DNA from: an uncultured Mycoplasmatota bacterium
Lineage (GTDB): Bacteria; Bacillota_I; Bacilli_A; RF39; UBA660
Length of the DNA stretch: 64,000 nucleotides
Direction: 5' to 3'
NCBI GenBank assembly: GCA_900549325.1
Contig: UROI01000001.1
Coordinates: 34,213-98,212, forward strand
The translations under genes and the position numbers were made by a program. This document shows, piece after piece, positions 993 through 55,063 of the stretch. The notes beneath the pieces were generated by a model that was not told where the DNA came from, ran no database searches, and saw nothing but the letters and a program-made list of their open reading frames with translations. Numbering within the stretch: position 1 is the first letter of the stretch; each line of letters opens with the position of its first letter.

Positions 993-3596
993 ATGGAAGA
1001 TGAAAATATTAAAAAAGAAAGCGACGATATTAATGAACTTGTTAATAGAGCAATGAATGACAATAATCAAGGTGAAAAAAATGAAGATATTGCTGTTGAA
1101 AATTCAGATATAGAAGAAACTGATAACTTTAATGGTGATTTTCATGAAAAAGATAGTAGTACTGCAAATGACATCGTTTCAGAGGTTAAAGACTCATTTA
1201 TTGACTATTCTATGAGTGTTATTACTTCAAGAGCTATTCCTGACCTTAGAGATGGCTTAAAACCTGTTCACAGGAGAATATTATGGTCTATGTATGAAGA
1301 AGGTAATACTCCCGATAAACCTCATAAAAAATCTGCAACTACTGTTGGTTACGTTATGGGACATTACCATCCTCATGGAGATAGTTCTATATATGAGGCT
1401 ATGGTTCGTTTAGCACAGGATTTTAATGAAAGATATATGTTAGTTGATGGTCATGGTAATTTTGGTAATATTGAAGGTGATGGTGCTGCAGCATATCGTT
1501 ATACTGAAGCAAGATTATCTAGAATTTCGCTTGAACTTATTAGAGATATTAATAAAAATACTGTTGATATGGATGATAATTTTGATGAAACTAGTAAAGA
1601 ACCTAGAGTATTACCAAGTAGATTTCCAAATATATTAGTAAATGGCTCAATGGGTATAGCTGTTGGTATGGCTACTAATATTCCTCCACATAATTTAGGT
1701 GAGGTAATTGATGGCTGTGTAGCATATATTGATAATCATGATATAGATACTTTAGGTCTTATGGAATACATAAAGGGGCCTGATTTTCCTACAGGTGGAA
1801 TTATACTTGGCAATTCTGGTATAAAAAAGGCCTATGAAACAGGTAGGGGATCTATTACTATTCGTAGTAGAGCGGAGATTGAAGAACATAATAATCATAA
1901 TACTATTGTTATTACTGAAGTTCCTTATGGTATAAATACTATGGAACTAAAAAATAAGGTAGCTGAACTTGTTAGAGATAAAGTTATTGATGGTATATCT
2001 GATTATCATACTGATTTAAAAGATGGTGTTAAAATCACTATTACTTTGAAAAGAGACGCTAATCCTCAGGTTGTACTTAATAATTTATATAAGCACACTA
2101 ATTTTCAAATTTCCTATGGAATTATATTTTTGATGCTTGATCAGGGTGTTCCTAAGACCTTGGGATTAAAGGATATTATTTCTAAATATATTGATCATCA
2201 AAAAGAAGTTATTATCAGACGAACTAAATTTGATTTAGATAAAGACGAGAGAAGAGTTCATATTTTGGAAGGTTATAAAATAGCTCAAGATAATATTGAT
2301 GAAGTTATCAAAATAATAAAAACTGCCGAAAGTGATATAGAAGCAAAGAAAAAGTTAATGGAACGATTTGCTTTATCTGAAATTCAAACTGATGCTATAT
2401 TAGAATTAAAATTGCGTCGTTTAACCGGAATGGAAAGAGATAAAATTGAAGCCGAACTTGCTGATTTGCTTGTTGAAATCGAAGAATTAAAGTCTATTCT
2501 TGCTTCTGAAGAAAAAGTTCTTAGTATTATTAAAAAAGAATTATTAGAAATTAAGAGTAGATATGCTGATGAAAGAAGAACACATATTGATATGACCGCT
2601 GTTGAATATATTGAAGACGAAAGCTTAATTCCTGAAGATAAAGTTGTTATTACTTTAACTAAGAAGGGATATATTAAGAGACTATCTGCTTCAACTTATA
2701 AGACACAGCATAGAGGTGGTGTTGGTATAAAAGGTATGTCTACTAATGAAGAAGACTTTGTTGAACAAATTCTTAATTGTTCTACACATGATTATGTTTT
2801 ATTCTTTACTAATATGGGTAAAGTATACAGGGTTAAAGGTTATAAAATTCCTGAGTATAGTAGACAATCAAAAGGATTACCAATTATCAATCTACTTAAC
2901 TTAGAACAAGGTGAGTATGTTACGGCTTTACTTAATGGCTCTAGTGATAGTGAAGATAAGTATTTGGTATTTGCCACTAAAAGTGGTTTAATTAAGAGAA
3001 CTGATTTGGCTGAATTCTATAATATTAGAATTAATGGTAAGAGATTTATCACTTTAAGAGATGATGATGAACTTATTTCTGTTAAGGGTACTACCGGAGA
3101 TAATGATATTTTAATGGCTTCTTCCAATGGTAGAATGGTAAGATTTAATGAAAATTCTATTAGAGTTATGGGAAGAGGTGCTTCTGGAGTTAGAGGTATT
3201 AATTTAGATGGTGGTTTTCTTGTCGGAATGGAAGTTGTTAAACCTAATGAAGATGTTCTTGTTATTAGTGAATATGGATATGGTAAAAAAACTCCTATTG
3301 ATGAATATAGAATAACAAATAGGGGTGGTAAAGGTGTTAAAACTATTAATATCACCGAAAAGAATGGTGCTATTGTTTCGTTTAAAACTGTTACAGATGA
3401 TAAGGATTTGATAATTATTACTGATACAGGTATGATTATCAGATTAGCAGTTGATAAGATTTCTAGAATGAGTAGAGTTACTCAGGGAGTTAGACTTATT
3501 AATCTTAAGGATGATACGAAAGTTAGTGGAACTGCGATTGTTGACAAAGAAAATGAAGAACAAACTTTGGAAACTAATGAAATAAAGAGTGAGTAA
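993..3596 (+). CDS. gyrA: DNA gyrase subunit A
   Basis: 867-aa ORF with the GyrA catalytic tyrosine region (AAAYRYTEARLS), the HPHGD motif and C-terminal beta-pinwheel repeats; GGAGG ribosome-binding site upstream. Confidence 0.95.
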   Translation: MEDENIKKESDDINELVNRAMNDNNQGEKNEDIAVENSDIEETDNFNGDFHEKDSSTANDIVSEVKDSFIDYSMSVITSRAIPDLRDGLKPVHRRILWSMYEEGNTPDKPHKKSATTVGYVMGHYHPHGDSSIYEAMVRLAQDFNERYMLVDGHGNFGNIEGDGAAAYRYTEARLSRISLELIRDINKNTVDMDDNFDETSKEPRVLPSRFPNILVNGSMGIAVGMATNIPPHNLGEVIDGCVAYIDNHDIDTLGLMEYIKGPDFPTGGIILGNSGIKKAYETGRGSITIRSRAEIEEHNNHNTIVITEVPYGINTMELKNKVAELVRDKVIDGISDYHTDLKDGVKITITLKRDANPQVVLNNLYKHTNFQISYGIIFLMLDQGVPKTLGLKDIISKYIDHQKEVIIRRTKFDLDKDERRVHILEGYKIAQDNIDEVIKIIKTAESDIEAKKKLMERFALSEIQTDAILELKLRRLTGMERDKIEAELADLLVEIEELKSILASEEKVLSIIKKELLEIKSRYADERRTHIDMTAVEYIEDESLIPEDKVVITLTKKGYIKRLSASTYKTQHRGGVGIKGMSTNEEDFVEQILNCSTHDYVLFFTNMGKVYRVKGYKIPEYSRQSKGLPIINLLNLEQGEYVTALLNGSSDSEDKYLVFATKSGLIKRTDLAEFYNIRINGKRFITLRDDDELISVKGTTGDNDILMASSNGRMVRFNENSIRVMGRGASGVRGINLDGGFLVGMEVVKPNEDVLVISEYGYGKKTPIDEYRITNRGGKGVKTINITEKNGAIVSFKTVTDDKDLIIITDTGMIIRLAVDKISRMSRVTQGVRLINLKDDTKVSGTAIVDKENEEQTLETNEIKSE

Positions 3597-3630
3597 TTTA
3601 AAATGCTTACTCTTTTTATTTCCCGGGAAA
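3590..3630 (+). terminator. Rho-independent terminator after gyrA
   Basis: GAGTAA / TTACTC hairpin followed by TTTTTATTT. Confidence 0.5.
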
Positions 3631-3676
3631 TAATTTTTATACTTTAAGCATACAAATGTTCGTCATTAATATATAC

Positions 3677-3705
3677 TTGTTTTTTTTGTTAAAATGTGAT
3701 ATAGT
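3677..3705 (+). promoter_or_regulatory. Sigma-A-like promoter in front of the SRP RNA candidate
   Basis: TTGTTT, then 17 bp, then TATAGT, with a TG dinucleotide at -14. Confidence 0.4.
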
Positions 3706-3711
3706 GTTGTT

Positions 3712-3792
3712 GATACAACATTAATGATGGAATCAAGTCAGGGGCGGAAGCCAGCAGCTTTAACATTTTATTAATGTGTGTATCTTTTTTTT
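3712..3792 (+). ncRNA. ffs: Small (4.5S-type) signal recognition particle RNA candidate
   Basis: Contains GUCAGGGGCGGAAGCCAGCAGC, matching the conserved SRP RNA domain IV (the E. coli 4.5S RNA has GUCAGGUCCGGAAGGAAGCAGC) including the GGAA tetraloop closed by a GC/GC stem; the 8-bp palindrome CAUUAANG occurs at both ends and could form the closing helix; ends in a T-run; has its own promoter. Confidence 0.55.
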
Positions 3793-3793
3793 A

Positions 3794-3809
3794 TGTTTCA
3801 CGTGGAACA
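3794..3809. promoter_or_regulatory. parS site 1 (TGTTTCACGTGGAACA)
   Basis: Equals the reverse complement of the B. subtilis-type parS TGTTCCACGTGAAACA; TTTTCCACA follows at 3814-3822. Confidence 0.8.
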
Positions 3810-4001
3810 TGAATTTTCCACAATTTTTTTATATTTGAATTGGACTATAGTTTTTAATTATTATATATCAAAATTGATAACGGATTTATTATATATAATA
3901 ATTAAAACTATATCGTTGATTAGTTATATAAGATTAAACAATAATGTTGTAATTAACTTAATGATATTTAATTTCTATTTTATTTTTAATTATATTATAA
4001 A

Positions 4002-4017
4002 TGTTTCACGTGAAACA
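4002..4017. promoter_or_regulatory. parS site 2 (perfect palindrome TGTTTCACGTGAAACA)
   Basis: Perfect 16-bp palindromic parS; TGAG then TTTTCCACA at 4022-4030. Confidence 0.85.
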
Positions 4018-4161
4018 TGAGTTTTCCACATGTAATCACGAAAGTAATAATTATAATATAATAATTAGATTTTTATTATAAATATTTAAAAATTAAACAT
4101 TTAAACTACATATTAATCTTAAGCTGTTTTATTTTTGTGTATTCTTTCTTTGTAAATATAA

Positions 4162-4177
4162 AGTTTCACGTGAAACG
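4162..4177. promoter_or_regulatory. parS site 3 (AGTTTCACGTGAAACG)
   Basis: 14-bp core GTTTCACGTGAAAC intact; TAAG then TTTTCCACA at 4182-4190. Confidence 0.75.
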
Positions 4178-4325
4178 TAAGTTTTCCACAATATATGTAT
4201 TAAACTTTTATATTTTCAGTACACTATCTGAAAAAAGAACATTTTCAGTGTATATTTAAAAAACTTTACTTAATTTAGCGCGTATTTAACTTAAAATGCT
4301 ACTTTATCTATTATTGAATTAACTA

Positions 4326-4341
4326 TGTTTCACGTGAAACA
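4326..4341. promoter_or_regulatory. parS site 4 (perfect TGTTTCACGTGAAACA)
   Basis: Perfect parS; TGAG then TTTTCCACA at 4346-4354. Confidence 0.85.
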
Positions 4342-4485
4342 TGAGTTTTCCACAACTAAAATCATTTTAATTATTGATATTAAATATATTTTAATTAACT
4401 GATTCAATAATGATATTAAATTTTTATAATTATATATATGATTTATTTATATTTATTAAATGTAATTATGTGATAAAAAAGTGTA

Positions 4486-4501
4486 AGTTTCACGTGAAAC
4501 T
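4486..4501. promoter_or_regulatory. parS site 5 (AGTTTCACGTGAAACT)
   Basis: Palindromic variant with intact 14-bp core; no DnaA-box-like motif follows. Confidence 0.75.
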
Positions 4502-4669
4502 TGTATATCAACATATTTTATCACTAAAATGTTGTTAATATATTAAATATATAATCAATTATAATGAATTTTTTTATTATTTAATTCAAATAAATTTATT
4601 TATACAACCATTTTTAGAAAATCATGATAAATTTTACTAAATTTTTTATCTTATACTATTAATTACAAA

Positions 4670-4685
4670 TGTTTCACGTGAAACA
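4670..4685. promoter_or_regulatory. parS site 6 (perfect TGTTTCACGTGAAACA)
   Basis: Perfect parS; TAAG then TTTTCCACA at 4690-4698. Confidence 0.85.
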
Positions 4686-4834
4686 TAAGTTTTCCACAAC
4701 ATATGTATTAAACTTTTATATTTTCAGTACACTATCTGAAAAAAGAATATTTTCTGTGTATTTTATTTTCAATTTCATTTAATTTTGCATATATTTGCTT
4801 TAAAATGGTACTTTATTTATTTTTGAATTAGCTA

Positions 4835-4850
4835 TGTTTCACGTGAAACG
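4835..4850. promoter_or_regulatory. parS site 7 (TGTTTCACGTGAAACG)
   Basis: One mismatch from consensus; lies about 90 bp upstream of the tadA start codon. Confidence 0.75.
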
Positions 4851-4937
4851 TTTTTTTACTTGTTGATGTGTATAATTAAAATAACTGGTTCTAGTTACTA
4901 TTTTTTGTTATACTTGTTGATAGAAAAGGAGTTTATA

Positions 4938-5360
4938 ATGAAAAAATATCTTGATATGGCATTTATTGAAGCAAAAAAGGCTTTTGATTTGGACGAAATT
5001 CCTGTAGGATGTGTTATTGTATACAAAAATAAGGTTATAGCCTGTGGACGCAATGAAAAAGAAAGCAAAAATTGTGCAATTAGGCATGCTGAGATGGTGG
5101 CGATTGATATAGCCTGTGGAAAACTCAATTCTTGGCGTTTGGATGAATGTGATCTTTATGTCACTTTGGAGCCCTGCATGATGTGTATGGGTGCAATTGT
5201 TGAATCTAGAATTAAAAATGTTTATTTTGGGGCAAAAAATAATGGCGAACAAATGTACGATATAAGGAGGATAAACAAGCTTGTTAACTTATATTTTCTT
5301 GATGATACAGATTGTTCAAAAATTTTATCTGATTTTTTTGCAAATAAACGAAAAAAATGA
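4938..5360 (+). CDS. tadA: tRNA-specific adenosine deaminase
   Basis: Cytidine/deoxycytidylate deaminase zinc motifs HAEMVAI and LEPCMMC; start at ATG 4938 with AAAGGAG ribosome-binding site (the ORF-track start at 4860 is upstream of the ribosome-binding site); same position relative to dnaX as B. subtilis tadA. Confidence 0.85.
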   Translation: MKKYLDMAFIEAKKAFDLDEIPVGCVIVYKNKVIACGRNEKESKNCAIRHAEMVAIDIACGKLNSWRLDECDLYVTLEPCMMCMGAIVESRIKNVYFGAKNNGEQMYDIRRINKLVNLYFLDDTDCSKILSDFFANKRKK

Positions 5361-16308: not shown

Positions 16309-16317
16309 ACTTTGTGT

Positions 16318-16530
16318 AAAGCAAAGAAGGAAAGAGTAATAGTAATATTTATAGAGAGTCTATGTTTGGTGGAAATAGATAAGAAAAGCTATTATAAATG
16401 GTTCCAGAGCAGTTATATCTAATAGGTGTAAACGGTTGTTACGTTATAACTTAATGAGTGTATATACTATAAAATAAGGTGGTACCGCGGAATATTTTTC
16501 GTCCTTTGGCCAGCCTTATTTTTTATTTTA
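16318..16530 (+). promoter_or_regulatory. T-box riboswitch leader upstream of dut-metG
   Basis: Canonical T-box sequence AAATAAGGTGGTACCGCGG at 16472-16490 (family consensus AAnnAGGGTGGNACCGCG); upstream AGAGAG stem I element; terminator-like structure plus T-run at 16500-16530. Confidence 0.6.
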
Positions 16531-52582: not shown

Positions 52583-52656
52583 GCAGATGTAGTTTAATGG
52601 TAGAACCTCAGCCTTCCAAGCTGACTGCGTGAGTTCGATTCTCATCATCTGCTCCA
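52583..52656 (+). tRNA. tRNA-Gly (anticodon UCC)
   Basis: 74-nt cloverleaf: acceptor stem GCAGATG/CATCTGC, D-arm, anticodon stem TCAGC/GCTGA with loop CTTCCAA (anticodon TCC), T-arm GTGAG TTCGATT CTCAT, encoded CCA. Confidence 0.85.

Positions 52657-53033: not shown

Positions 53034-55063
<2,030 letters not shown>

What the first reader, a model, noticed from the sequence alone, without database searches (positions are those of the whole stretch)
3794..4850. Dense, regularly spaced array of seven parS centromere sites in a 1.06-kb ORF-free region between gyrA and tadA
Seven 16-bp elements match the ParB/Spo0J parS consensus tGTTtCACGTGAAAca. Three are perfect palindromes (TGTTTCACGTGAAACA), one is the exact B. 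subtilis parS in reverse (TGTTTCACGTGGAACA), and three are end-position variants with the 14-bp core intact. They sit at 3794, 4002, 4162, 4326, 4486, 4670 and 4835. Start-to-start spacings are 208, 160, 164, 160, 184 and 165 bp. Known chromosomal parS sites in Firmicutes are usually scattered over hundreds of kb and often lie inside genes. A compact, periodic, non-coding array is unusual. The intervening 135- to 190-bp AT-rich spacers have diverged while the parS cores stay nearly perfect, which argues for selection on ParB binding. The region occupies the position where B. subtilis has the rrnO operon. I propose it is a dedicated ParB nucleation and SMC-loading platform, or a segregation locus of an unusual kind.
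Basis: partly seen in the sequence, partly recalled or inferred. Interest (0 to 1): 0.85.

Follow-up and report, generated by a model that had tools for sequence, protein, structure and literature searches.

The report
Centromere array pairing parS with DnaA boxes
About 9 kb from the replication origin of an uncultured low-GC gut bacterium lies a conserved 1-kb non-coding array of seven chromosome-segregation (parS) sites, five of them followed 4 bp later by a binding site for the replication initiator DnaA, so the two processes may be physically coupled here.

Summary
Seven parS sites (at most 2 mismatches) lie at the stated coordinates. There are no others in about 86 kb around oriC.

- Five of the seven parS are followed, after exactly 4 nt and always on the same side and strand, by TTTTCCACA. 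This is a 1-mismatch DnaA box, and the same variant occurs in this genome's own oriC.
- A perfect Noc-binding site sits at 3618-3631.
- The SRP RNA gene (3702-3799) lies inside the gyrA-tadA gap.

The array sits downstream of gyrA in every relative examined: 13 species genomes, 5 relatives chosen only by GyrA similarity, and 30 metagenome contigs. Across 14 arrays, 50 of 79 parS carry a DnaA box with at most 1 mismatch on the dnaX side, against 0 of 79 in three control configurations. Polarity is uniform within every array. One subclade has the array without boxes, and some relatives interleave Noc sites as well.

Dense parS clusters as such are not rare; they also occur in Treponema, Lachnospiraceae and Parcubacteria loci.

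Best reading: an origin-proximal centromere built of composite parS + DnaA-box units.

Main gap: no canonical ParB gene was found in the sequence I could reach. Relatives encode only a Noc-like paralogue near oriC, with no ParA beside it. All protein binding is inferred.

The parts
3584..3615 (+). Terminator-like hairpin plus T-run after the gyrA stop (gyrA is 993-3596). It marks the left boundary of the non-coding region.
   Evidence: 12-bp stem; 0 such sites expected in shuffles.
3618..3631 (.). Perfect Noc-binding site ATTTCCCGGGAAAT (extended palindrome TTATTTCCCGGGAAATAA). It is the only one in the window.
   Evidence: 0 mismatches; 0.08 expected at up to 2 mismatches; the same site lies between gyrA and the array in L012, L023, L027, L030, L034, L040, L046 and L048 (0 mismatches) and in L039, L045 and L047 (1 mismatch).
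3702..3799 (+). Small SRP RNA gene (ffs/scr). Its T-run ends at 3792 and its annotated 3' end overlaps parS1 by 6 nt.
   Evidence: RF00169, 58 bits against a gathering score of 40; an SRP RNA gene lies next to the array in 12 of 13 related loci.
3794..3822 (+). Unit 1: parS TGTTTCACGTGGAACA (3794-3809), TGAA, then DnaA box TTTTCCACA (3814-3822). The right parS half and the box can pair as a hairpin (3802-3821) followed by a T-run.
4002..4030 (+). Unit 2: perfect parS (4002-4017), TGAG, then DnaA box TTTTCCACA (4022-4030).
4162..4190 (+). Unit 3: parS AGTTTCACGTGAAACG (4162-4177), TAAG, then DnaA box TTTTCCACA (4182-4190).
4326..4354 (+). Unit 4: perfect parS (4326-4341), TGAG, then DnaA box TTTTCCACA (4346-4354).
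4486..4513 (+). Unit 5: parS AGTTTCACGTGAAACT (4486-4501), TGT, then a weak box ATATCAACA (4505-4513; 2 mismatches to TTATCCACA).
4670..4698 (+). Unit 6: perfect parS (4670-4685), TAAG, then DnaA box TTTTCCACA (4690-4698). It is a recent duplicate of unit 3.
4835..4850 (.). Unit 7: parS TGTTTCACGTGAAACG with no box. It is the last site before the tadA promoter region. A TTATACACA lies on the minus strand at 4867-4875.
4938..5360 (+). tadA (tRNA adenosine deaminase), the right boundary, followed by dnaX, ybaB and recR.
   Evidence: gene called at L001 13946-14368, which equals window 4938-5360; Pfam dCMP_cyt_deam_1 and MafB19-deam.

Best explanation
The 3.6-4.9 kb stretch is the origin-proximal centromere region of this chromosome. 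It is built by tandem duplication of a composite unit: an 18-bp ParB site (aTGTTNCACGTGNAACAt) followed 2-8 bp later (4 bp here), on the origin-distal side and always on the same strand, by a DnaA box (TTWTCMACA).

Inferred mechanism, not tested here:
- ParB dimers load at the seven parS as CTP-dependent clamps. Seven loading sites in 1 kb would give a compact, very dense partition and SMC-loading complex 8-9.5 kb from oriC.
- DnaA occupies the adjacent boxes. The initiator is then held directly beside each ParB loading site.
- DnaA could act there in one of three ways. It could be a sequestered pool, as in datA or DnaA-box-cluster titration modulated by ParB occupancy. It could be a licensing factor for the centromere, as reported for Caulobacter. 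Or it could be a one-sided roadblock that confines sliding ParB clamps within the array.
- A single Noc site at the left edge adds the ParB paralogue Noc to the same hub.

Shown: the sites, their non-random pairing and polarity, their conservation and position, and their absence elsewhere. Inferred: every protein-DNA interaction and the functional coupling.
For: 1. The parS sites are real and exclusive to this spot: 7 sites against 0.1 expected, and none elsewhere in the window or in the 22 kb to the left.
2. The array lies 8-9.5 kb from normal DnaA-box clusters that flank dnaA, and from the GC-skew switch.
3. Position is conserved.
   - All 13 low-GC species loci have the array directly after gyrA and beside ffs.
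   - All 5 relatives picked only by GyrA identity (80-91%) have 3-7 parS in the same 1.1-1.3-kb gyrA-tadA gap.
   - 30 of 37 low-GC metagenome loci show the same synteny.
4. Pairing with DnaA boxes.
   - In the window, 5 of 7 parS have TTTTCCACA at a fixed 4-nt offset.
   - Across 14 arrays, 50 of 79 parS have a box with at most 1 mismatch within 20 nt on the dnaX side. None of 79 does on the other side or in the other orientation.
   - After excluding sites that matched the search pattern, 33 of 85 still have a box, against about 0.3 expected from the spacer background of 2.9e-4 per position.
   - L046, chosen without regard to the motif, has 5 of 7 parS with TTATCAACA, a variant the search pattern could not have selected.
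5. The motif behaves as a DnaA box and not as a parS half-site.
   - The matrix of 71 boxes reads T/a-T-T/A-T-C-C/a-A-C-A.
   - Positions 2 and 9 are never G, although a parS half TGTTNCACG would require G there.
   - The perfect consensus TTATCCACA occurs 6 times.
   - The same variants (TTTTCCACA, ATATCCACA) make up this genome's own oriC.
6. Polarity is uniform within every array. In 28 metagenome arrays, 23 have all boxes on the dnaX side, 4 have all on the gyrA side, and none is mixed.
7. Spacers have diverged (51% column identity) while parS and box are kept. No coding potential is conserved.
8. There is precedent for DnaA binding boxes within a centromere region: Caulobacter (Mera 2014, as reviewed in PMC6399470) and the D. 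radiodurans cisII/cisMP arrays (PMC7671480).
Against: - No canonical ParB gene (R173/G201-type HTH) was found in any sequence I could reach for this clade. That covers the 64-kb window, about 22 kb left of gyrA (L001 and L050) and all low-GC array loci.
- The only ParB-family gene seen near oriC in relatives (L051, L052) has Noc-like specificity residues Q173 and K179, with N or F at 184 and H at 201. No ParA gene lies beside it.
- Four of five relatives at 80-83% GyrA identity keep the array but have no DnaA boxes. The box is therefore dispensable for whatever the array minimally does.
- Units arise by duplication, so the copies within one genome are not independent.
- DnaA boxes are short and AT-rich in a 27% GC genome. 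In the window as a whole, 1-mismatch boxes are not enriched (29 found, 24.6 expected).
- No binding, ChIP or phenotype data exist.
Confidence: 0.6

Rival explanations
1. It is an ordinary multi-site parS centromere cluster. The TTTTCCACA next to parS has no function of its own and is carried along because the array grows by duplicating whole units.
For: - Units 3 and 6, and units 4 and 7, are recent duplicates.
- Four relatives keep the array with no boxes.
- Dense parS clusters without boxes occur in other phyla.
Against: - The box is retained while the rest of each spacer has decayed to background identity.
- It recurs in lineages with only 63-69% GyrA identity, with different box variants and offsets of 2-8 nt. 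That is not what a passively copied flank would show.
- After excluding sites that matched the search pattern, 33 of 85 parS still have a box, against about 0.3 expected.
- Polarity is uniform in all arrays.
Confidence: 0.15
2. The parS-like sites are bound not by a classical ParB but by the clade's unusual Noc-like ParB-family protein (Q173/K179/H201, with a long disordered tail). This protein might recognise both NBS and parS. The array would then be a membrane-tethering or nucleoid-occlusion hub and not a ParABS centromere.
For: - It is the only ParB-family gene found near oriC in relatives, and it has no ParA partner.
- NBS and parS are interleaved within about 10 bp of each other in some relatives.
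- A perfect NBS flanks the window's array.
Against: - Both site types are kept at their exact, distinct consensus. They differ precisely at the two bases that discriminate ParB from Noc.
- In the mutational scan of Jalal et al., parS-specific variants always have R173, and Q173 variants prefer adenine at that base (PMC7383237).
- Two site types therefore imply two readers.
- Only a small part of the genome could be searched for ParB.
Confidence: 0.1
3. The extra motif is a third ParB half-site or an extended ParB contact. TTTTCCAC resembles TGTTCCAC and is an inverted repeat of the right parS half.
For: - The box differs from a parS half-site at only 1-2 positions.
- It pairs with GTGGAA of the right half-site (hairpin 3802-3821).
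Against: - Across 71 boxes, position 2 is never G and position 9 is never G.
- Frequent variants such as TTATCAACA, CTATCAACA and ATATCCACA move toward the DnaA consensus and away from parS.
- The offset varies from 2 to 8 nt.
Confidence: 0.05
4. The array is part of the replication origin itself, either an extra DnaA-assembly module or a second origin.
For: - Five or six co-oriented DnaA boxes lie in the most AT-rich DNA of the region (16-20% GC).
- D. radiodurans secondary replicons combine ori and centromere functions in a single repeat array.
Against: - Standard DnaA-box clusters flank dnaA 8-9.5 kb away.
- The GC-skew and gene-orientation switch lies upstream of dnaA.
- The boxes are about 160 bp apart, too far for a contiguous DnaA oligomer.
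- Related arrays without boxes exist.
Confidence: 0.04
5. It is a mobile or dispersed repeat family (a MITE-like element, or a plasmid or phage centromere remnant) unrelated to chromosome partitioning.
For: It has a repetitive, AT-rich, palindrome-containing structure.
Against: - No copy occurs elsewhere in about 86 kb.
- The location is fixed across dozens of species.
- There are no matches to the composite in 2.9 million viral contigs.
- There are no terminal repeats or transposase.
Confidence: 0.02

Closest known systems
Caulobacter crescentus parS cluster with DnaA boxes (Toro 2008; Tran 2018, PMC5815017; Mera 2014 as reviewed in PMC6399470)
   Same: - There are several parS (parS1-7, with the five strongest within 5 kb), about 8 kb from the origin.
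- DnaA binds DnaA boxes within the centromere region through domain IV and is needed to start segregation.
   Different: - Here the sites are far denser: 7 in 1.06 kb.
- All are non-coding.
- The box is part of the repeated unit itself, in a 1:1 ratio with fixed offset and polarity.
- The host is a low-GC Firmicute lineage with no ParA seen next to its ParB-family gene.
- Nothing has been tested experimentally.
Bacillus subtilis Spo0J parS sites and non-oriC DnaA-box clusters (my own knowledge for the clusters; parS spacing from PMC5815017)
   Same: - The 16-bp parS consensus is identical.
- DnaA boxes use the same consensus.
- Both systems lie close to the origin and influence initiation through Soj and DnaA.
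   Different: - B. subtilis parS sites are single, mostly inside genes, and 5-39 kb apart.
- In B. subtilis the DnaA-box clusters are separate loci and are not paired with parS.
Plasmid tandem-repeat centromeres, for example F sopC (12 x 43-bp repeats, each with a SopB site; my own knowledge)
   Same: - The centromere is made of head-to-tail repeats.
- Each repeat carries one palindromic site for a ParB-family protein.
   Different: - This array is chromosomal.
- Units are 160-208 bp with diverged spacers.
- It uses the canonical chromosomal parS.
- Each unit carries a second protein's site.
- It is not adjacent to parAB.
Deinococcus radiodurans cisII/cisMP (PMC7671480)
   Same: - A repeat array has DnaA boxes and ParB-binding iterons overlapping or adjoining.
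- It binds both DnaA and ParB in vitro.
   Different: - Those arrays lie on secondary replicons, upstream of parAB.
- They use non-canonical 18-bp iterons.
- They serve as the replication origin. Here the true oriC is elsewhere.
Noc/NBS system of Firmicutes (Wu 2009, my own knowledge; Jalal 2020, PMC7383237)
   Same: - There is a perfect 14-bp NBS at 3618-3631.
- Relatives encode a Noc-like protein directly after rsmG, as in B. subtilis.
   Different: - In this clade NBS sites are placed beside, and in some relatives interleaved with, parS within the same array.
- The Noc-like protein has H at position 201 and a 200-300-aa low-complexity tail.

Membership tests
Chromosomal parS (ParB/Spo0J centromere site) | 16-bp palindrome matching TGTTNCACGTGAAACA | tested here: met
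   Seven sites with 0-2 mismatches; four have 0 mismatches on at least one strand.
Chromosomal parS (ParB/Spo0J centromere site) | Origin-proximal location | tested here: met
   8.0-9.5 kb from the DnaA-box clusters that flank dnaA, and on the same side as the GC-skew rise.
Chromosomal parS (ParB/Spo0J centromere site) | Sites conserved under selection in related genomes | tested here: met
   Arrays of 3-9 parS lie downstream of gyrA in 13 species loci, 5 unbiased relatives and 30 metagenome loci, while the spacers are unconserved.
Chromosomal parS (ParB/Spo0J centromere site) | Cognate ParB with parS-type HTH (R173, small residue at 201) encoded in the genome | tested here: inconclusive
   None found in the window, in L001, in L050 or in any low-GC array locus. 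Only about 96 kb of this genome could be reached. Relatives have a Noc-like paralogue (QKNH or QKFH) after rsmG.
Chromosomal parS (ParB/Spo0J centromere site) | ParB binding and spreading, and SMC loading, at the site | not testable with these tools
   Requires ChIP-seq or in vitro assays.
DnaA box / DnaA-box cluster (datA-like or DBC-like) | 9-mer matching TTATCCACA with at most 1 mismatch, of the kind used at the organism's own oriC | tested here: met
   Five copies of TTTTCCACA. The same variant occurs in the dnaA-flanking clusters of the same genome. The matrix over 71 boxes reads TTWTCMACA.
DnaA box / DnaA-box cluster (datA-like or DBC-like) | Non-random clustering | tested here: met
   Association with parS: 50 of 79 against 0 of 79 in controls. 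After excluding pattern-matched sites, 33 of 85 against about 0.3 expected.
DnaA box / DnaA-box cluster (datA-like or DBC-like) | DnaA binding and an effect on initiation | not testable with these tools
   No experimental data.
Replication origin (oriC) | DnaA-box cluster at the strand-skew and gene-orientation switch, next to dnaA, with an unwinding element | tested here: not met
   The skew minimum and orientation switch lie upstream of dnaA, at about L001 1100-1400. Dense boxes lie at L001 3181-3313 and 4772-4811. The array lies 8-9.5 kb away and its boxes are about 160 bp apart.
Noc-binding site (NBS) | 14-bp palindrome ATTTCCCGGGAAAT | tested here: met
   Perfect match at 3618-3631, conserved at the same position in 11 relatives.
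Noc-binding site (NBS) | Noc-type protein (Q173, K179/K184, R201) encoded | tested here: inconclusive
   Relatives L051 and L052 encode Q173/K179 but H201. The NCBIfam nucleoid_noc score is 262 bits, below the 315 cutoff. The gene was not located in the window's own genome.
Dispersed repeat or mobile element | Many copies at unrelated loci; mobility genes or terminal repeats | tested here: not met
   No other copy in about 86 kb. Synteny is fixed. There are no matches in viral contigs.

The most novel reading that the evidence does not exclude
In a broad clade of uncultured low-GC gut Bacilli, the centromere is a modular array. Its repeated unit hard-wires a ParB loading site to a DnaA box of fixed polarity, and in some lineages also to a Noc site. 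This implies direct physical interplay at every unit between the replication initiator and ParB-family CTP clamps. One possibility is that DnaA acts as a one-sided barrier or gatekeeper for ParB sliding. Another is that ParB occupancy controls a sequestered DnaA pool. The lineage appears to lack ParA next to its ParB-family gene.
Probability: 0.3. Interest if true: 0.8.

Novelty: new variant of a known kind. Interest (0 to 1): 0.62.

Why it matters
How bacteria couple replication initiation to chromosome segregation is an old open question. The known links are indirect (Soj/ParA acting on DnaA in B. subtilis) or rest on one organism (DnaA at the Caulobacter centromere).

A centromere whose every repeat places a DnaA box 4 bp from a ParB loading site is a natural, sequence-defined substrate for testing DnaA-ParB interplay. 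The pairing is conserved over dozens of species and has strict polarity. Sister lineages that lost the boxes provide natural controls. The questions it opens are whether the two proteins co-occupy a unit, compete, or whether DnaA blocks CTP-clamp sliding. These can be tested with purified proteins or by transplanting the 1-kb array into B. subtilis.

The arrays also show that parS, NBS and DnaA boxes can be combined in one hub. This bears on how the ParB and Noc paralogues divide labour.

For annotation, the array is a better marker of the segregation origin in these metagenome-assembled genomes than dnaA alone.

Tried and rejected
- ParB in the window: motif and HMM scans of all six frames found nothing.
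- ParB to the left of oriC: I walked out with an LtaS homologue to reach 10 kb beyond the dnaA-upstream gene in the window's species. That stretch holds LtaS, a glycosyltransferase, fpg, polA, a TraG-like gene and polC, but no ParB.
- ParB in relatives: I walked from yidC and found only a Noc-like ParB-family gene after rsmG and no ParA. All three protein-search credits were used, so the rest of the genome could not be reached.
- Array as oriC: rejected on GC skew, gene orientation and the dnaA-flanking boxes.
- Box as a ParB half-site: rejected on the position matrix.
- CodY or Spo0A boxes: considered by eye. Only unit 1 resembles a CodY box, so I dropped this.
- Small ORFs (3778-4020, 4137-4259, 4410-4538): they are not conserved beyond the translated parS/box.
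- Promoter scan of the region: not above shuffled expectation (22 found, 17.4 expected), so I make no claim about transcription units.
- Window against L030 (96% identical): too close for footprinting.
- Viral contigs: no composite matches.
- Papers: Livny 2007 and Mera 2014 are not held in the paper library. I cite them only through papers that discuss them, or from my own knowledge.
- Palindrome extension beyond 16 bp: real in relatives but minimal in the window, so I report it only as a side observation.
Full report
**Observation**

At up to 2 mismatches to TGTTNCACGTGAAACA the window has these seven sites and no others, against 0.10 expected from dinucleotide shuffles.

An alignment of the seven units shows invariant columns almost only in the parS and just after it. 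The spacers have a mean column identity of 51%. The three mechanical ORFs in the region (40-80 aa) resemble relatives only through the translated parS, so the region is non-coding.

The spacing of 160-208 bp is regular only loosely. Part of the regularity reflects a recent duplication: 4160-4256 matches 4668-4764 at 94%, and 4262-4340 matches 4771-4849 at 82%.

**What else is in the region**

The gap is more structured than 'between gyrA and tadA'.
- gyrA (993-3596) ends with a terminator-like hairpin at 3584-3615.
- A perfect Noc-binding site, ATTTCCCGGGAAAT, follows at 3618-3631. It is the only one in 64 kb.
- The small SRP RNA gene occupies 3702-3799 (Rfam, 58 bits). Its end abuts parS1.
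- Five of the seven parS are followed, after exactly 4 nt and on the same strand, by TTTTCCACA, a 1-mismatch DnaA box.
- A sixth parS (4486) is followed by ATATCAACA at 4505-4513.

**Genomic setting**

The window matches NCBI assembly GCA_902477185.1, contig CABSGF010000001.1. Public records of relatives are labelled 'Bacilli bacterium', 'Tenericutes bacterium' or 'Clostridium sp. CAG:302'.

The gene order is DUF87/HerA-like ATPase, dnaA, dnaN, comK, recF, gyrB, gyrA, [NBS, ffs, array], tadA, dnaX, ybaB, recR. Ordinary DnaA-box clusters flank dnaA at L001 3181-3313 and 4772-4811. They use TTATCCACA, TTTTCCACA and ATATCCACA. The GC-skew and gene-orientation switch lies just upstream of the HerA-like gene.

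The array is therefore 8-9.5 kb to the right of oriC and is not oriC itself. No parS occurs in the 22 kb to the left.

**Comparative evidence: position**

A scan of 185,579 species genomes for parS + N5 + TTWTCCACA returned 38 loci. Thirteen are low-GC (25-28%) Bacilli-like genomes with 3-8 parS within about 1 kb.
- In all 13 the array lies directly after gyrA. GyrA identity to the window ranges from 63% to 99%, and DnaX identity goes down to 46%.
- In 12 of the 13 the array lies beside the SRP RNA gene, either 3' or 5' of it.

That sample was selected by the motif. I therefore also took five relatives chosen only by GyrA similarity (80-91% identity). All five have a 1.1-1.3-kb gyrA-tadA gap holding 3-7 parS.

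A metagenome scan added 37 low-GC array loci, and 30 of them show the same gyrA/tadA/dnaX synteny. The array's place downstream of gyrA is thus conserved across a deep clade while its spacers are not.

**Comparative evidence: the DnaA box**

I oriented 14 arrays (79 parS) in the gyrA-to-dnaX direction.
- 50 parS have a box with at most 1 mismatch, and 65 with at most 2, within 20 nt on the dnaX side, reading TTATCCACA on the top strand.
- None of the 79 has a box with at most 1 mismatch on the other side or in the other orientation.
- Offsets are 2-9 nt, with a mode of 4.
- Across all 19 oriented arrays (107 parS), after excluding the sites that matched the search pattern, 33 of 85 parS still have a box. 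About 0.3 would be expected from the background rate in the same spacers (2.9e-4 per position and strand).
- L046, an unbiased relative, has 5 of 7 parS followed by TTATCAACA, a variant the search pattern could not have selected.
- In 28 orientable metagenome arrays polarity is uniform within each array: 23 have boxes only on the dnaX side, 4 only on the gyrA side, and none is mixed.

The position matrix of 71 boxes reads T/a, T, T/A, T, C, C/a, A, C, A. G never occurs at position 2 or position 9, although a parS half-site (TGTTNCACG) would require it there. The perfect DnaA consensus occurs six times. The motif therefore behaves as a DnaA box and not as a third ParB half-site.

The box is not universal. 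L045, L047, L048 and L049 (GyrA 80-83%) keep the array without boxes. Whatever the box adds is dispensable in that subclade.

**ParB-family proteins**

I could not find a canonical ParB.
- Six-frame motif and HMM scans were negative for the window, L001, L050 and every low-GC array locus.
- Walking 10 kb beyond the gene upstream of dnaA in the window's species found no ParB.
- In two relatives the classical rpmH-rnpA-yidC-jag-trmE-mnmG-rsmG block is followed by a lone ParB-family gene of 426-509 aa, with no ParA beside it.

The N-terminal 200 residues of that protein align with Noc and Spo0J structures. It passes the generic parB_part model but not the Noc equivalog (262 bits against a 315 cutoff). 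At the four specificity positions defined by Jalal et al. (PMC7383237) it reads Q173, K179, N or F at 184, and H201. That is Noc-like at 173 and 179. Bona fide ParBs in the Clostridia loci read R..G, and their Noc paralogues read QK(K/R)R.

By that study, Q173 favours adenine at the discriminating base (the NBS type), and parS-specific variants always have R173. This protein is therefore the likely reader of the conserved NBS sites and not of parS.

Both site types are kept at their exact, distinct consensus. That argues for a second, canonical ParB elsewhere in the genome, but I have not shown it. This is the main weakness of the ParB interpretation.

**A wider hub**

NBS sites are conserved at several places:
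- between gyrA and the array, in 11 relatives;
- at the end of recF;
- inside dnaX;
- between the HerA-like gene and dnaA.

In some more distant relatives (L159, L148, L077, L171) NBS sites are interleaved with parS and DnaA boxes in the same array. An example is DnaA box, parS, 8-9 nt, NBS. The gyrA-dnaX intergenic space in this clade thus collects sites for three chromosome-maintenance proteins.

**How unusual is it?**

Dense parS clusters are not unique to this clade.
- Treponema loci have 3-7 sites within 0.2-0.6 kb, sometimes abutting oriC-like DnaA-box runs.
- Lachnospiraceae and Butyricicoccaceae have 4-5 sites in about 0.8 kb directly upstream of parA-parB.
- A Parcubacteria locus has 5.

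Clustering near ori is also documented in the literature.
- In Caulobacter the five strongest sites lie within 5 kb, about 8 kb from ori.
- B. subtilis sites are 5-39 kb apart.
- C. glutamicum has ten sites in 35 kb.
- Gut bacteria have 'several parS in the same 5 kb window'.

I found no paper describing parS paired one-to-one with DnaA boxes. The nearest precedents are DnaA binding at the Caulobacter centromere (reviewed in PMC6399470) and the D. radiodurans cisII/cisMP arrays, which bind both DnaA and ParB.

**Mechanism**

This is inferred and not tested. ParB would load at seven sites within 1 kb and form a compact, dense partition and SMC-loading complex next to oriC. DnaA would bind the adjacent boxes. 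The centre-to-centre distance from parS to box is about 16 bp, so the two proteins would be immediate neighbours.

Three non-exclusive consequences are possible:
- a DnaA sink whose occupancy depends on ParB (datA-like or DBC-like titration);
- DnaA licensing of the centromere, as in Caulobacter;
- DnaA as a one-sided roadblock that confines sliding ParB clamps to the array.

I cannot distinguish these.

**Verdict**

The feature is best described as a new variant of a known kind: a parS centromere cluster whose repeated unit includes a DnaA box, flanked by a Noc site. Confidence in that description is about 0.6. The limits are the missing ParB gene and the absence of any binding data.

Noticed in passing
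window 3618-3631; also L001 8026, L046 8026/12690/15550, L050 3134/13685/16251, L048 2741, L052 7459: Perfect Noc-binding sites (ATTTCCCGGGAAAT, usually within TTATTTCCCGGGAAATAAT) recur at conserved spots around the origin. These are after gyrA, at the end of recF, inside dnaX, and between the HerA-like gene and dnaA. In a 27% GC genome, CCCGGG is rare.
   Followed up: partly
L159 2560-3060; L148 1210-2020; L077 1-1113; L171 405-905: In more distant relatives the post-gyrA array interleaves three site types (DnaA box, parS and NBS) in repeated units. An example is TTATCCACA-parS-8/9 nt-NBS.
   Followed up: partly
L051 15938-17218; L052 15999-17528: This is the lone ParB-family gene after rsmG in relatives. 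It has a Noc-like HTH (Q173, K179, N/F184, H201) and a 200-300-aa Q/N/P-rich low-complexity region. Its conserved C-terminus reads ...YSNETGHCIIIEL. No ParA gene is adjacent.
   Followed up: partly
L045 12757-13686, L047, L048, L049; also L015, L029, L036: Many parS in relatives sit inside longer perfect palindromes (up to 13 extra bp per arm) whose arm sequences differ from site to site. At least 4 extra complementary pairs occur at 31-38% of sites, against 2% at control positions. This could reflect hairpin or cruciform selection, or quasipalindrome template-switch mutation. The extension is minimal in the window itself.
   Followed up: partly
L001 1388-3148 (upstream of the window); same position in L045-L053: A conserved 586-aa DUF87/HerA-like ATPase gene sits directly upstream of dnaA throughout the clade, between rpmH (or LtaS) and dnaA. 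Its NCBIfam HerA matches are far below the cutoffs.
   Followed up: no
L001/L046/L050 compared with L045/L047/L048/L049/L052: The window's species and its closest relatives have an LtaS-family gene where other clade members have rpmH-rnpA-yidC-jag-trmE-mnmG-rsmG-noc-like. The origin-left flank has therefore been rearranged in this lineage.
   Followed up: no
window 52583-52653 and 53228-55063: A tRNA gene is followed by a large serine recombinase and several small HTH genes. Another strain (L044) carries a tyrosine integrase and different genes at the same point, so this looks like an integration hotspot for mobile elements.
   Followed up: no
window 3802-3821: The right half of parS1 (GTGGAA) pairs with the adjacent DnaA box (TTCCAC) to form a terminator-like hairpin followed by a T-run. 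It lies just after the SRP RNA's own T-run.
   Followed up: no
L007, L008, L014, L024 (Lachnospiraceae, Butyricicoccaceae); L006, L018, L019, L022, L031, L033 (Treponema, Spirochaetia); L032 (Parcubacteria): Dense parS clusters (3-7 sites in under 1 kb) exist in unrelated phyla. In the Clostridia loci they lie immediately upstream of parA-parB. In Treponema they lie next to runs of DnaA boxes. In L032 two overlapping parS abut a tRNA-like sequence.
   Followed up: partly
window 16315-16509; L001 6341-6802: A T-box leader lies upstream of the dUTPase and Met-tRNA-synthetase genes. A comK homologue is inserted between dnaN and recF. Sporulation genes (spoIID, spoIIID, spoVT) are present in the window.
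   Followed up: no
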